DNA of 64,000 bases. Origin: Escherichia coli. Its GTDB lineage: Bacteria; Pseudomonadota; Gammaproteobacteria; Enterobacterales; Enterobacteriaceae. How positions within the stretch are numbered: the stretch's first letter is position 1; every line of letters begins with the position of its first letter. Positions 49,901 to 55,900 of the stretch are shown piece by piece. The position numbers were made by a program. Location: NCBI RefSeq assembly GCF_044324875.1, contig NZ_CP172185.1; one strand, given 5' to 3'.

Positions 49901-52900
49901 AACGCCTTTGCCGGGAGTGCCCTGAGTCACGCGGCGCTGCCGTAACACGTTATCAGGCCACCGCGGTGGCCTGACTGATTTCAGAATGAAAGGAACTGAT
50001 TTATGGGATTGTTTACGACCCGCCAGTTACTCGGTTATACCGAACAAAAAGTGAAATTTCGTGCGCTGTTTCTGGAGCTGTTTTTCCGCCGTACGGTGAA
50101 TTTCCATACCGAAGAGGTGATGCTGGACAAAATTACCGGAAAAACGCCGGTGGCGGCCTATGTCTCCCCGGTTGTTGAAGGAAAAGTGCTGCGTCATCGT
50201 GGTGGTGAAACCCGCGTCTTGCGTCCGGGCTACGTCAAGCCGAAACACGAATTTAATTCCCGGCAGGCGGTTGAGCGCCTTCCTGGTGAAGATCCGGCTC
50301 AACTGAACGATCCGGCTTACCGCCGTCTGCGTATCATTACCGATAACCTCAAACAGGAAGAGCACGCGATTGTCCAGGTGGAAGAAATGCAGGCGGTAAA
50401 TGCCGTGCTGTATGGCAAATACACCATGGAAGGAGACCAGTTCGAGAAAATTGAGGTCGATTTTGGCAGATCGCCGGCGAATAACATTACGCAGGCCAGT
50501 GGTAAAAAATGGTCTGAGCACGATCGTGACACGTTCGATCCTGCGCATGATATTGACCTCTACTGCGACCAGGCCAGCGGCCTTGTGAATATTGCCATTA
50601 TGGACGGTACCGTCTGGCGTCTGCTGAATGGTTTTAAGCTGTTCCGCGAAAAACTGGATACCCGTCGCGGTTCAAATTCGCAACTCGAAACGGCAGTGAA
50701 AGACCTGGGGGCGGTGGTGTCTTTCAAAGGGTATTACGGTGATCTGGCCATTGTGGTGGCGAAAACGTCTTATGTGGCAGAGGACGGTACCGAAAAACGT
50801 TATCTGCCAGACGGCACGCTGGTCCTGGGGAATACTGCTGCAGATGGGATCCGTTGTTACGGTGCCATTCAGGATGCACAGGCGTTGTCTGAAGGAGTGG
50901 TGGCCTCTTCCCGTTATCCGAAACACTGGCTGACGGTGGGGGATCCCGGCCGTGAATTTACCATGACGCAGTCCGCGCCGCTGATGGTGTTGCCGGACCC
51001 GGATGAGTTTGTGGTGGTACAGGTGAAATAATCCGTGAGCGGGGGCGAAATGCCCCCGTGTCTTTTTTCACAGGGGGCTGATATGGCAACGAAAGAGCAA
51101 AATCTGAAACGGCTTGATGAACTGGCCCGGATTCTGGGGCGTGAGCCGGATATATCCGGGAGTGCCGCAGAGATAGCGCAGCGGGTGGCGGAATGGGAAG
51201 AGGAAGCAGAGGACAAAAACCAGGAGAGTGATGAGAACGAAAGGCATTTGATGACGTATAGCTACTCCACTGGCGGGGATGAAATGAGCACTGTTCGTGT
51301 ACTCAAAACCCTGCATGTGGCGGGAAAACATCCGCATGATGACAGTGATATGGAGATTGTTGTTACAGGTATGACTGTCAGAGTTGATCCAGTGAATGTT
51401 GCGGAACTTGTCCTGGAGGGGCTTGTTACAGATGAAAGTTATTAATATCAGGGATAACGGTTTTGATACAGCCATTGCCCGGGCTGATGAAACGATACGC
51501 GGGCATATGGGAACGTCAGCCACCATTACATCCGGTGAGCAGCCCGGCGCAGTAATACGTGGTGTTTTTGATGACCCTGAAAATATCAGCTATGCCGGAC
51601 AGGGCGTGCGCGTTGAAGGCTCCAGCCCGTCCCTGTTTGTCCGGACTGATGATGTGCGGCAACTGCGGCGTGGAGACACGCTGACCATCGGTGAGGAAAA
51701 CTTCTGGATAGACCGGGTTTCGCCGGATGATGGCGGAAGCTGTCATCTGTGGCTGGAGCGGGGAGCGCCGCCTGCCACGGCGCGCCGACGCTGAGGGAGT
51801 GAGTATGTATATCCGGGGTATGGAAAATGCCATTGAAAACCTGAGCCGTATTAACCGCAGTGCGGTACCCGGTGCGGCGGCGATGGCCTTAAACCGGCTG
51901 GGTTCTGCAGTCACTGCGCAATCGGCATCACAGGTATCCCGTGAGGTCAAAATCCCACGGAAATTTGTCCGTGAAAGGATGAAGCTAAAAAAGGCCACAC
52001 CAAAAAATCAGTCTGTCCGGATCTAGACTGGCCCCCTGAATCTCCAGACAACCAGTATCACTTAAATAAGTGATAGTCTTAATACTAGTTTTTAGACTAG
52101 TCATTGGAGAACAGATGATTGATGTCTTAGGGCCGGAGAAACGCAGACGGCGTACCACACAGGAAAAGATCGCAATTGTTCAGCAGAGCTTTGAACCGGG
52201 GATGACGGTCTCCCTCGTTGCCCGGCAACATGGTGTAGCAGCCAGCCAGTTATTTCTCTGGCGTAAGCAATACCAGGAAGGAAGTCTTACTGCTGTCGCC
52301 GCCGGAGAACAGGTTGTTCCTGCCTCTGAACTTGCTGCCGCCATGAAGCAGATTAAAGAACTCCAGCGCCTGCTCGGCAAGAAAACGATGGAAAATGAAC
52401 TCCTCAAAGAAGCCGTTGAATATGGACGGGCAAAAAAGTGGATAGCGCACGCGCCCTTATTGCCCGGGGATGGGGAGTAAGCTTAGTCAGCCGTTGTCTC
52501 CGGGTGTCGCGTGCGCAGTTGCACGTCATTCTCAGACGAACCGATGACTGGATGGATGGCCGCCGCAGTCGTCACACTGATGATACGGATGTGCTTCTCC
52601 GTATACACCATGTTATCGGAGAGCTGCCAACGTATGGTTATCGTCGGGTATGGGCGCTGCTTCGCAGACAGGCAGAACTTGATGGTATGCCTGCGATCAA
52701 TGCCAAACGTGTTTACCGGATCATGCGCCAGAATGCGCTGTTGCTTGAGCGAAAACCTGCTGTACCGCCATCGAAACGGGCACATACAGGCAGAGTGGCT
52801 GTGAAAGAAAGTAATCAGCGATGGTGCTCTGACGGGTTCGAGTTCCGCTGTGATAACGGAGAAAAACTGCGAGTCACGTTCGCGCTGGACTGCTGTGACC

Positions 52901-55900
52901 GTGAGGCACTGCACTGGGCGGTCACTACGGGCGGCTTCAACAGTGAAACAGTACAGGACGTCATGCTGGGAGCGGTGGAACGCCGCTTCGGCAACGAGCT
53001 TCCGGCGTCTCCAGTAGAGTGGCTGACGGATAATGGTTCATGCTACCGGGCTAATGAAACACGGCAGTTTGCCCGGATGTTGGGGCTTGAACCGAAGAGC
53101 ACGGCGGTGCGGAGTCCGGAGAGTAACGGCATAGCAGAGAGCTTCGTGAAAACGATAAAGCGTGACTACATCAGTGTCATGCCCAAACCAGACGGGTTAA
53201 CGGCAGCAAAGAACCTTGCAGAGGCGTTCGAGCATTATAACGAATGGCATCCGCATAGTGCACTGGGTTATCGCTCGCCACGGGAATATCTACGGCAGCA
53301 AGCCAGTAATGGGTTAAGTGATAACAGGTGTCTGGAAATATAGGGGCAAATCCAGGATCGTGGTTAACCGGGGCGATTTTCCGGTGATCAAACTGGGTAA
53401 CGCCAGACTGCGACTGTCCAGGCGTAAACGTCGTCGAAAGGGCGAGCGTTCAGCCGAGAAAGGCGGAGGAAGTGTTCTTGTCGTGGGGAACCGCCGTATT
53501 CCGGGGGCTTTTATCCAGAGACTTAAAAACGGTCGCTGGCATGTTATGCAGCGGGAAGCAGGCCGAAATCGTTATCCTATTGATGTGGTGAAAATACCGA
53601 TGCAGGCTCCGCTGACGTCAGGGGTGCAGGAGAATATCACACGGTTGTACAGGGATAAGTTTCCCGCAGAACTGGCTGCCGCACTGAAACAGAAGATACG
53701 AATGGAGGTGAAAAAGCGATGAAGCATACTGATATCCGCAATGCCGTGCTGAATGCGCTGGAGGAGACTACCGAGGGTGTGACGCTGTATGACGGACTGC
53801 CCGCCGTTATCGAAGACGGGGATTTTCCGGTTATTGCCGTTTATATCACGGATGCTGCATATACAGGTGAGGTGCTTGATGCGGATACGTGGGAGGCCAC
53901 TCTGCATATTAATCTGTTTCTTCCGGTCCAGGTTCCTGATGCTGAACTGGATGACTGGATGGAAAAACGCATTTATCCGGCGATTGAAAATATCCCCGCT
54001 CTGGCCGGACTGATAACCACCATGGTACCGCAGGGCTATGATTACCAGCGTGATCAGGACATGGGGTCATGGAGTGCGGCAGATCTGACTTATACCATTA
54101 CATACGATATGTGAGGCTGAATAATGACAACACCGAATCCGGCAGCACCGGTAAAAGGTGCAGGAACCACGCTCTGGGTATACACCGGAAAAGGGGATCC
54201 GTATGCGAATCCACTGTCCGATGTTGACTGGGAGCGTCTGGCAAAAGTGAAGGATCTGGCTCCCGGTGATATGACCGCTGAGTATTATGATGATAATTAT
54301 CTTGATGACGACGATGCGGACTGGGTTTCCACAGGGCAGGGGCAGAAGTCAGCAGGAGATACCAGTTTTACGCTGGCATGGAAACCCGGCGAAAACGGGC
54401 AGCGAGGGTTACTGGCATGGTTCGATCAGGGGGATGTTCGTGCCTATAAAATCCGCTTTCCGAACGGCACGGTGGATGTTTTTCGTGGCTGGGTGAGCAG
54501 TATTGGCAAAGCGATTACTGCAAAGGATGTTATCACGCGTACTGTAAAAGTGACCAATGTCGGACGTCCGTCTCTGGCGGAAGATCAGGGCAGTGTTACG
54601 GCGCTCACCGGTATTACCCTGACACCATCCACTCATACCTTGGCGAAGAACAGCACTGTGGATCTGACCGTGGCACTCCAGCCTGCGCGGGCTACCGATA
54701 AAACTTTCCGTGCCATTTCCACCGACACATCAAAAGCGACGATCAGCGTTAATGATATGACCATCACAGTGAAGGGCATCGCTGCGGGTAAATCGCAGAT
54801 CCTGGCCATCAGTGGTGACGGTCAGTTTGCGGCTGTCGCAGAAATCAATGTTACGGGCTGATATCAGGCCTTTCTGCTTTTTCCGGAGTTTTACCGATGT
54901 TTCTCAAAAATGAACCGTTTGAATATAACGGGCAGTCCGTCACGCTCACGGAACTGTCAGCCCTGCAGCGTATCAGCCACCTTGCCTTCCTGAAAGCGCG
55001 TGAAGAGGCTGAGGGGGGTGATGATATACAGGTGGCACTGGATGACACTATCCGGGAGGGGGCATACCTTGTGGCTATGTCACTGTGGCATACCCATCCT
55101 GTAAAGGGGACGCTGGGATCGCCGGAAGACGAAGAACGACAACTGATGAATGAGGTATTGCAGAGATGGCCGGTGGAGGCCATCTCTGCAGCATTCAGTC
55201 GTGTCATTGTTCTGTCGGGAATGGTGACCCCGGTACGGACCGCGCCGGAAGAGGAGGAGACTGAAGCGGTGACGGCGGGAAAGCCTTCGACAGTGAACTG
55301 AATTTTGTCCTGAGACTGGCGCGTGAGATGGGAAGACCCGACTGGCGCGCCATGCTGGCGGATATGTCATCAACGGAATATGCCGACTGGCATCAGTTTT
55401 ACCGTACGCATTATTTTCATGATGTGCTGCTGGATCAGCATTTTGCTGGGCTGACGTATACCGTGCTCAGCCTGTTTTTCAGCGATCCGGATATGCATCC
55501 GCTGGATTTCAGTCTGCTGAACCGGCGTGAGGCTGACGAAGAGCCTGAAGATGACGTGCTGATGCAGAAAGCAGCAGGGCTTGCCGGAGGGGTTCGTTTT
55601 GACCCTGCGGGGAATAAAGTCATCTGCATTGCCTCTGATGTGGAGGATATGACGGGGGATGGTGTCATGCTGATGACGATATCGGAAGGTATAGCAGGAG
55701 GTAGACGGTATGGCTCAACCGGTCAGTGATCTTGTCGTTGATATGACGCTGGATGCCACCCGGTTCAGCGAACAGATCAAAAAGGTCAGGCAGCATTTTC
55801 AGCAGGTGGACAGTGATGCAGGAAAAACGGCTGTTGCTGTTGAGCAATCCATGTCCCGGCAGGCGGAAGCTGCCCGCCGTGCCGGGATATCCATCGGTCA

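What the first reader, a model, noticed from the sequence alone, without database searches (positions are those of the whole stretch)
52019..53359. IS2 insertion in tail gene Z with intact 5-bp target duplication
A complete 1331-bp IS2 splits gene Z. GGATC is present on both flanks, and removing the IS and one GGATC copy restores a continuous lambda-Z-like frame (..QSVRIVVNRGDFP..). The intact duplication suggests a relatively recent event.
Basis: seen in the sequence. Interest (0 to 1): 0.35.

Follow-up and report, generated by a model that had tools for sequence, protein, structure and literature searches.

The report
IS2 insertion splitting prophage tail gene Z
A common 1.3-kb jumping gene (IS2) has inserted into the tail-completion gene Z of a lambda-like prophage in an E. 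coli-type chromosome, which is an ordinary way for a prophage to be disabled.

Summary
Window 52024..53354 is a complete 1331-bp IS2, flanked by GGATC at 52019-52023 and 53355-53359. It is 100% identical to many E. coli copies and 98.1% identical, with no indels, to K-12 IS2A. It has a 42-bp IRL, a 41-bp IRR, orfA, the A6G frameshift window and orfB.

Removing the IS and one GGATC gives a 193-aa ORF. That ORF matches Pfam Minor_tail_Z end to end and is 67% identical, without gaps, to lambda Z. The same protein is encoded intact on 15 public contigs. Nine related loci carry the exact 40-nt empty site inside flanks about 99.98% identical over 9 kb.

The same junctions occur in three other draft assemblies, so the insertion is inherited within a small clade rather than unique. 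None of 5,426 complete RefSeq E. coli genomes has it. The Z halves carry no substitutions, so "recent" holds.

New context: in this genome the same tail module also has an ISSso4-like IS21-family element in tape-measure gene H and a nonsense codon in gene K. A sister assembly that has IS2 in Z lacks both lesions, so IS2 came first.

Verdict: real, correctly interpreted, already known biology, low interest.

The parts
51805..52023 (+). Z 5' fragment, codons 1-73 (MYIRGMEN...KNQSVRI). The last 5 nt are the left copy of the target duplication. The frame is closed at once by TAG at 52024-52026, the first three bases of IS2.
   Evidence: The 73-aa product is called with PF06763 in three other assemblies.
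52019..52023 (.). Left copy of the 5-bp target-site duplication, GGATC
52024..53354 (+). Complete IS2 (1331 bp). IRL is on the Z-5' side, and the transposase genes run in the same direction as the phage late operon.
   Evidence: 100% identity to many E. coli copies; 98.1% to K-12 IS2A, no indels; NCBIfam IS2 TnpA/TnpB
52024..52065 (+). IS2 left inverted repeat (IRL, 42 bp, begins 5'-TA)
   Evidence: inverted repeat I1, 52033-52065 against 53314-53346. IRL is numbered 1-42 in PMC3299598.
52115..52480 (+). orfA (InsC/TnpA, 121 aa), identical to K-12 InsC1
   Evidence: Pfam HTH_Tnp_1; NF006928 at 276 bits against a cut-off of 229
52432..52438 (+). A6G slippery window for the -1 frameshift that gives OrfAB (409 aa)
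   Evidence: the mechanism is described in PMC3299598
52438..53343 (+). orfB (InsD/TnpB frame, 301 aa) with the rve DDE core; 8 aa differences from K-12 InsD1
53314..53354 (+). IS2 right inverted repeat (IRR, 41 bp, ends ...TCCA-3'); one substitution (A to G at element position 1305) relative to the published IRR
   Evidence: the IRR sequence is quoted in PMC3219604
53355..53359 (.). Right copy of the 5-bp target-site duplication, GGATC
53360..53722 (+). Z 3' fragment, codons 74-193 plus the stop codon. It has no start of its own; the mechanical GTG ORF from 53318 begins inside IRR. The stop overlaps the U start (ATGA).
51432..51794 (+). Context: FII-like head-tail attachment gene upstream of Z
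   Evidence: PF05354
53719..54114 (+). Context: tail terminator gene U immediately downstream of Z
   Evidence: PF06141; the exact protein is listed in 97 blocks of the public collection
56876..59514 (+). Context: a second, independent insertion. An ISSso4-like IS21-family element (2639 bp; istA 57108..58643, istB 58660..59415) lies in tape-measure gene H, with the 7-bp duplication AGATGGC at 56869-56875 and 59515-59521.
62198..62200 (+). Context: nonsense codon TAG (GAG in all relatives) at codon 79 of 247 in tail gene K (61964..62707)

Best explanation
An IS2 copy transposed into codons 72-73 of the tail-completion gene Z of a lambda-like prophage integrated in mlrA/yehV of an E. coli-lineage chromosome. 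IS2 belongs to the IS3 family and moves by copy-out/paste-in through a figure-of-eight and then a minicircle intermediate. The staggered 5-bp cut at the target, once repaired, gave the GGATC duplication. Z is now a pseudogene. Its N-terminal 73 codons stop at the TAG that begins IS2, and the remaining 120 codons have no start. Shown here: the identity and completeness of the IS, the duplication, the exact empty site in relatives, the intact protein elsewhere, and the same junctions in other assemblies. Inferred: on induction the prophage would lack gpZ. In lambda, loss of gpZ gives normal-looking but poorly infectious virions. In this particular genome no functional tails would form at all, because H and K are also broken. 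The insertion arose once in a recent common ancestor of a small clade and came before the H and K lesions.
For: IS identity: 100% identical copies; match in 4845 of 5426 genomes; 1331 bp, 98.1% to the annotated IS2A of K-12, OrfA identical, A6G window present, OrfAB 409 aa; HTH_Tnp_1, rve; IS2 TnpA/TnpB above cut-off. 5-bp duplication; K-12 IS2A is likewise flanked by a 5-bp repeat, ATTAC. Z: 193-aa ORF after removal; PF06763, 1-190/190, E = 2e-65; 67% identity, no gaps, to lambda NP_040590.1; exact protein intact on 15 contigs. Empty site: the 40-mer is exact in L001-L008 and L010; flanks 99.98% identical over 9073 nt in the four closest loci, 98.8-99.99% across all nine; 0-1 nt difference within Z. 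Shared insertion: (left junction in L011, L012, L013; right junction in L009). L009 and L011 come from the same assembly, GCA_958430965.1. Order of events: L009 has the IS2 junction but an intact H and intact K. Mechanism and gpZ phenotype from the literature: PMC3299598 and PMC11784142.
Against: Nothing in the sequence contradicts this reading. Several limits remain. No expression or induction data exist. The source genome is not among complete RefSeq E. coli genomes, so its lineage is unnamed. Whether the other assemblies share the insertion by descent or by repeated insertion at the same site is inferred from parsimony only. L012 differs at 3 flank positions. The IRR carries one substitution relative to the published IRR. 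Because this variant is present in many identical copies, that substitution evidently does not block transposition.
Confidence: 0.97

Rival explanations
1. The junctions were made by homologous recombination between two IS2 copies (an inversion, deletion or other rearrangement), so the two flanks were not originally adjacent.
For: IS2 is multicopy in E. coli genomes (median 3 places per genome that has any match, up to 41; these counts include partial matches), so such rearrangements do happen in general.
Against: Both flanks carry the same 5-mer. Joined, they reproduce exactly the 40-nt empty site and the whole 193-aa Z found in 9 relatives. Gene order FII-Z-U is preserved.
Confidence: 0.01
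2. Assembly artefact: an IS2 copy was wrongly placed inside Z when repeats were resolved.
For: IS elements are classic sites of assembly error. Related draft assemblies break their contigs inside this IS2 (L009, L011-L013).
Against: Three other assemblies contain reads or contigs that run from Z sequence into IS2 at exactly the same base: GCA_958430965.1 at both junctions, and GCA_025414085.1 and GCA_025409305.1 at the left junction. A misplacement would not create a perfect 5-bp duplication.
Confidence: 0.01
3. The insertion is real, but it recurred independently at a hot spot in the different assemblies and was not inherited once.
For: L012's prophage flank differs from the window at 3 positions, one of which is shared with other uninterrupted loci. 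The flank next to the ISSso4 insertion in H resembles that IS's own tip, showing that target preferences exist for some elements.
Against: Site, orientation and duplication are identical, and the flanks are 99.8-100% identical. None of 5,426 complete E. coli genomes has IS2 at this site or in a close Z. The intact Z allele is itself rare. One event plus descent is the simplest account.
Confidence: 0.05

Closest known systems
IS2A of E. coli K-12 MG1655 (NC_000913.3 381260-382590, annotated mobile element splitting yaiX)
   Same: Same length (1331 bp) and fully collinear, 98.1% nucleotide identity. OrfA is identical, the A6G window and IR architecture are the same, and it has a 5-bp target duplication (ATTAC there, GGATC here). 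It also splits a gene into two annotated fragments.
   Different: 25 substitutions, almost all in orfB (8 aa changes), plus one each in IRL and IRR. The window's variant is itself widespread and has exact copies in many E. coli genomes.
Bacteriophage lambda gpZ, the prototype tail completion protein (NP_040590.1; Pfam PF06763)
   Same: The rejoined product is 193 aa against 192 aa, 67% identical without gaps, with full-length Pfam coverage and the same FII-Z-U-V-G-T-H-M-L-K-I gene order.
   Different: Here the gene is split after codon 73 and cannot make full-length protein. At the DNA level the FII-Z-U region is only about 76-77% identical to the full-length matches in complete E. coli genomes and phage records.
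IS-disrupted lambdoid prophages of E. coli and Shigella (for example IS629 in O157 prophages, cryptic K-12 prophages, and the classical lambda::IS2 polar mutants). This comparison rests on my own knowledge and was not tested here.
   Same: An IS3-family element inserted in a late or structural gene leaves a prophage that cannot produce infectious particles. Further lesions then accumulate, here in H and K.
   Different: None in kind. This is one more instance, at a site not present in any of 5,426 complete RefSeq E. coli genomes.

Membership tests
IS2 (IS3 family, IS2 group) | About 1.33 kb, collinear with the reference IS2 and at least 95% identical to it at the nucleotide level (the ISfinder isoform convention, from my own knowledge) | tested here: met
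   1331 bp and 98.1% identical, without indels, to the annotated IS2A of K-12. It is 100% identical to many other E. coli copies.
IS2 (IS3 family, IS2 group) | Imperfect terminal inverted repeats: IRL of 42 bp beginning 5'-TA, and IRR of 41 bp ending CA-3' | tested here: met
   IRL 52024-52065 and IRR 53314-53354. The IRR matches the published 41-mer except for one base. IRL numbering follows PMC3299598.
IS2 (IS3 family, IS2 group) | Two overlapping ORFs (orfA, orfB) with an A6G -1 frameshift window that yields the OrfAB transposase | tested here: met
   orfA 52115..52480, A6G at 52432, orfB 52438..53343, and a conceptual OrfAB of 409 aa. NF006928 and NF006918 both score above their cut-offs.
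IS2 (IS3 family, IS2 group) | DDE (rve) catalytic core in OrfB | tested here: met
   Pfam rve E = 4.8e-19 and rve_3 E = 9e-18
IS2 (IS3 family, IS2 group) | 5-bp target-site duplication | tested here: met
   GGATC on both flanks, with a single copy at the empty site in 9 relatives. K-12 IS2A also has a 5-bp repeat.
IS2 (IS3 family, IS2 group) | Transposition through figure-of-eight and minicircle intermediates; current activity of this copy | not testable with these tools
   Mechanism taken from PMC3299598 and PMC3219604. Activity is only inferred, from intact ORFs and ends and from the many identical copies.
Lambda gpZ tail completion protein (PF06763 Minor_tail_Z) | Full-length match to the family profile | tested here: met
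   For the rejoined 193-aa product: profile positions 1-190 of 190, 220.6 bits against a cut-off of 23.9; 67% identity to lambda Z
Lambda gpZ tail completion protein (PF06763 Minor_tail_Z) | Position between the head-tail joining gene FII and the tail terminator gene U | tested here: met
   PF05354 upstream and PF06141 downstream. Relatives and lambda have the same order.
Lambda gpZ tail completion protein (PF06763 Minor_tail_Z) | Uninterrupted coding sequence able to give full-length protein | tested here: not met
   In the window the ORF stops at 52024-52026 after 73 codons, and the remaining 120 codons lie 1336 bp downstream. It is a Z pseudogene, not a working Z.
Lambda gpZ tail completion protein (PF06763 Minor_tail_Z) | Needed for infectivity of otherwise normal-looking virions | not testable with these tools
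   Phenotype taken from PMC11784142. There is no solved-structure homologue by sequence.
IS21 family (ISSso4-like), for the second insertion in H | An istA transposase plus an istB helper ATPase, TG...CA ends, and a short target duplication | tested here: met
   NF033546 and NF038214 score above cut-off. The element is 99.6-99.8% identical to copies annotated as ISSso4-family. Its ends and the 7-bp duplication were defined against three other copies.

The most novel reading that the evidence does not exclude
The IS2 in Z might not be a neutral accident. It could be a selected and potentially reversible lock on the prophage. Precise excision between the two GGATC copies would restore Z exactly. 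That excision could be promoted by an IS-excision enhancer of the kind described for IS3-family elements (bioRxiv 10.1101/2023.06.07.543989, listed). Under this reading a small clade carries a conditionally defective phage. Alternatively, the site could be a true IS2 hot spot. Neither reading is excluded by the sequence, and neither is supported beyond the intact duplication. In this genome the extra H and K lesions argue for plain decay.
Probability: 0.03. Interest if true: 0.35.

Novelty: already known. Interest (0 to 1): 0.08.

Why it matters
It matters little beyond annotation. It shows that this mlrA-integrated lambdoid prophage cannot make infectious particles, and it gives a clean, ordered example of prophage decay: IS2 in Z first, then an IS21-family element in H and a nonsense codon in K. 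The IS2/Z junction could serve as a lineage marker, since it is absent from 5,426 complete E. coli genomes but present in a few draft assemblies. No open question becomes testable because of it.

Tried and rejected
- Searched all complete RefSeq E. coli genomes with Z plus IS2. No record covers 80% or more of the query, so the source genome and this insertion are not in that set.
- Searched the rejoined FII-Z-U DNA in E. coli genomes and phage records. Full-length matches are only about 76-77% identical, so nothing close is annotated there.
- Ran exact junction and empty-site patterns against GTDB species-representative genomes, and the left flank against IMG/VR.
- Looked up the truncated 428-aa H product. 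It is not on record.
- Compared Z with PDB chains by sequence. No match.
- Ran a promoter/terminator consensus scan of 51600-54200. Counts were at the shuffle expectation and no outward hybrid promoter was found at the IRR/Z junction. The idea that the Z 3' fragment is re-expressed from IS2 has no support.
- The GTG ORF from 53318 is a mechanical ORF in a different frame from orfB. It was rejected as a transposase-Z fusion.
- The first estimate of a 14-bp duplication for the H insertion was rejected after three other ISSso4 copies defined the ends. It is 7 bp, and the extra matching bases are a resemblance between the target and the IS tip.
- A literature search combining IS2, 5-bp and prophage was swamped by IS26 papers and gave nothing useful.
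Full report
**1. The observation**

Reading the window directly and with a script gives three adjacent features. 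GGATC lies at 52019-52023. A 1331-bp element, TAGACTGGCCCCCTGAATCTCCAGAC...GTCTGGAAATATAGGGGCAAATCCA, spans 52024-53354. GGATC occurs again at 53355-53359. The element's ends are imperfect inverted repeats. Neither end occurs anywhere else in the 64-kb window. The coordinates in the finding (52019-53359) are therefore exactly the IS plus both copies of the duplication.

**2. The element is IS2**

- It is 100% identical over its full length to copies in many E. coli genomes. A match is found in 4845 of 5426 complete genomes.
- Against the curated 'insertion sequence:IS2A' of K-12 MG1655 (NC_000913.3 381260-382590) it has the same length and no indels. There are 25 substitutions, giving 98.1% identity.
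- OrfA (121 aa) is identical to the K-12 protein and OrfB differs at 8 of 301 residues.
- The A6G slippery window is present at 52432, and a -1 shift there gives a 409-aa OrfAB.
- Pfam finds HTH_Tnp_1 in OrfA and HTH_21, rve and rve_3 in OrfB.
- NCBIfam scores 'IS2 repressor TnpA' at 276 bits (cut-off 229) and 'IS2 transposase TnpB' at 709 bits (cut-off 597).
- K-12 IS2A is itself flanked by a 5-bp repeat, ATTAC.
- The published description of IS2 matches what is seen here: a 42-bp IRL beginning TA that acts only as recipient end, a 41-bp IRR, an A6G frameshift, and a two-step pathway through a figure-of-eight and then a minicircle (PMC3299598 and PMC3219604).
- The IRR here differs from the published 41-mer by one base. 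Because this variant exists in many identical copies, it is evidently mobile. That last step is an inference.

**3. The interrupted gene is a lambda-Z homologue**

- Deleting the IS and one GGATC joins 51805-52023 to 53360-53722 into a 582-nt ORF of 193 aa. Keeping both GGATC copies breaks the frame.
- The product matches Pfam PF06763 (Minor_tail_Z) over profile positions 1-190 of 190, with E = 2e-65.
- It aligns with lambda Z (NP_040590.1, fetched) at 67% identity over 192 residues without a gap.
- The neighbours are FII-like (PF05354) upstream and U (PF06141) downstream.
- The break falls after codon 73. The IS2 tip, TAG, supplies an in-frame stop immediately.

**4. Empty sites and sister insertions in public data**

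The exact U protein was looked up in public assemblies.

- *Empty sites.* This returned nine loci (L001-L008, L010) with an uninterrupted 193-aa Z.
  - All nine contain the exact 40-nt empty-site sequence with a single GGATC.
  - Their flanks are 98.8-99.99% identical to the window. The four closest loci (L001, L002, L004, L005) are 99.98-99.99% identical over 9073 nt.
  - The rejoined Z is nucleotide-identical to Z in L001, L004, L005 and L010, and differs by 1 nt from Z in the others.
  - The exact 193-aa protein is encoded intact on 15 contigs.
- *Sister insertions.* The 73-aa N-terminal fragment is encoded on four contigs from at least three assemblies.
  - Three of those contigs were read, one from each assembly. 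In each, the contig runs from Z into IS2 at the same base (L011, L012, L013).
  - L009 comes from the same assembly as L011 and carries the right junction.
- *Conclusion.* The insertion is real and independent of this assembly. It is shared by a small group of genomes.
- *Rarity.* No complete RefSeq E. coli genome has it. Neither the junction nor the empty site is found in GTDB species representatives, and the left flank is absent from IMG/VR.

**5. Surroundings**

- Positions 1 to about 23.6 kb are E. coli-type chromosome, running mglC ... preTA, mdtQ, dusC ... bglX, yehWXY, osmF. This stretch is at most 98.9% identical to any complete RefSeq E. coli genome. The host is therefore of the E. 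coli/Shigella lineage, but its own genome is not in that set.
- mlrA/yehV (22933..23580, minus strand) lacks about 25 N-terminal residues and abuts an integrase at 23655..24941. The prophage therefore sits in mlrA.
- The prophage has a CI-like repressor, helicase, primase, RusA, Q, a porin moron, tRNA-Met and tRNA-Lys, lysozyme, Rz, and then a lambda-type head and tail module. It runs off the window's right end.

**6. Two further lesions in the same tail module**

- *Insertion in H.* Homology to the relatives stops at 56882 and resumes at 59515.
  - The intervening DNA is an IS21-family element with istA and istB.
  - It is 99.6-99.8% identical to copies annotated as ISSso4-family.
  - Comparison with three other copies sets its ends at 56876 and 59514, making it 2639 bp. 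It has a 7-bp duplication, AGATGGC.
  - It splits tape-measure gene H.
- *Nonsense codon in K.* Gene K carries GAG to TAG at 62198, codon 79 of 247. All relatives have GAG.
- *Order of events.* L009, the sister genome with IS2 in Z, has an intact H and an intact K. IS2 in Z was therefore the earlier event, and H and K were hit later in this lineage.
- *Overall divergence.* Across 12.4 kb of comparable sequence the window differs from L001 by these three lesions and one synonymous change in FI.

**7. Mechanism and consequence**

Shown here: a simple IS2 transposition with a 5-bp duplication, producing a Z pseudogene.

Inferred from published work: lambda gpZ is the prototype tail completion protein. 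Its loss gives normal-looking virions with much lower infectivity (PMC11784142). A prophage carrying only this lesion would therefore release mostly non-infectious particles. In this genome the H and K lesions should abolish tail assembly altogether.

Whether IS2 is polar on U-V-G-T-H cannot be told from sequence. Q-modified late transcription may read through; that is my own knowledge and was not tested here. A consensus scan found no outward hybrid promoter and no excess of terminator-like sites.

**8. 'Recent'**

An intact duplication alone says little. Better evidence is that the two Z halves have no substitutions relative to intact alleles, and that the IS is identical to other copies. 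Against that, the insertion is old enough to be shared by several assemblies, one of which has three SNPs in its flank (L012). It is also old enough to have been followed by two more inactivating events here.

**9. Comparison with what is known, and verdict**

Every defining feature of IS2 that can be tested in silico is met. The rejoined gene meets the sequence and synteny criteria for gpZ, but as found it fails the 'uninterrupted' criterion, so it is a Z pseudogene. IS-disrupted lambdoid prophages are commonplace in E. coli and Shigella.

It is already known biology and of low interest. Its only added value is as a lineage marker and as a tidy, ordered example of prophage decay.

Noticed in passing
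window 56876-59514 (duplication at 56869-56875 and 59515-59521): An ISSso4-like IS21-family element (2639 bp, istA + istB) splits tape-measure gene H, with a 7-bp duplication AGATGGC. The target sequence just 3' of the duplication (TGCAAAAG) resembles the IS's own left tip (TGCAAAAT). The element is absent from the sister assembly that has IS2 in Z (L009).
   Followed up: yes
window 62198 (gene K, 61964-62707): A GAG to TAG nonsense mutation at codon 79 of 247 in tail gene K (JAB/NlpC-P60). All related loci, including L009, have GAG. This is the third inactivating lesion in the tail module.
   Followed up: yes
window 22933-24941: The prophage is integrated in mlrA (yehV). The remaining mlrA ORF lacks about 25 N-terminal residues of its MerR HTH and abuts a tyrosine integrase. 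From my own knowledge, this is the site used by Stx1 phages of O157. No stx-sized ORFs are seen between Q and the lysis genes.
   Followed up: partly
window 37092-39565: A complete Gram-negative porin gene (366 aa, minus strand, 37710-38813) lies between the Q antiterminator gene and a tRNA-Met/tRNA-Lys pair (39412-39565). This is a moron in the usual Q-to-lysis cargo position.
   Followed up: partly
window 42487-42867: A small ORF (126 aa) with a TonB C-terminal domain lies just after the lysozyme/Rz lysis genes. Its function is unknown; it may act on TonB-dependent receptors.
   Followed up: no
window 27009-28626 and 32522-33142: The early region carries an SPFH/Band-7 protein next to an ORF6N-domain protein on the minus strand. 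A NUMOD4 + HNH homing-type endonuclease lies just upstream of the helicase and primase genes.
   Followed up: no
L015 (NZ_CP103533.1 3729255-3732027): In E. coli strain 4238 an ISSso4 copy is inserted into the very tip of an IS2 IRL (duplication GACTGG). The two IS types found in this window's tail module therefore also hit each other elsewhere.
   Followed up: no
window 1-23600: The chromosomal part is at most 98.9% identical to any of 5,426 complete RefSeq E. coli genomes, and the FII-Z-U DNA is only about 76-77% identical to the full-length matches among E. coli prophages and phage records. The host lineage (possibly Shigella or an under-sampled E. coli group) could not be named with the tools available.
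   Followed up: partly
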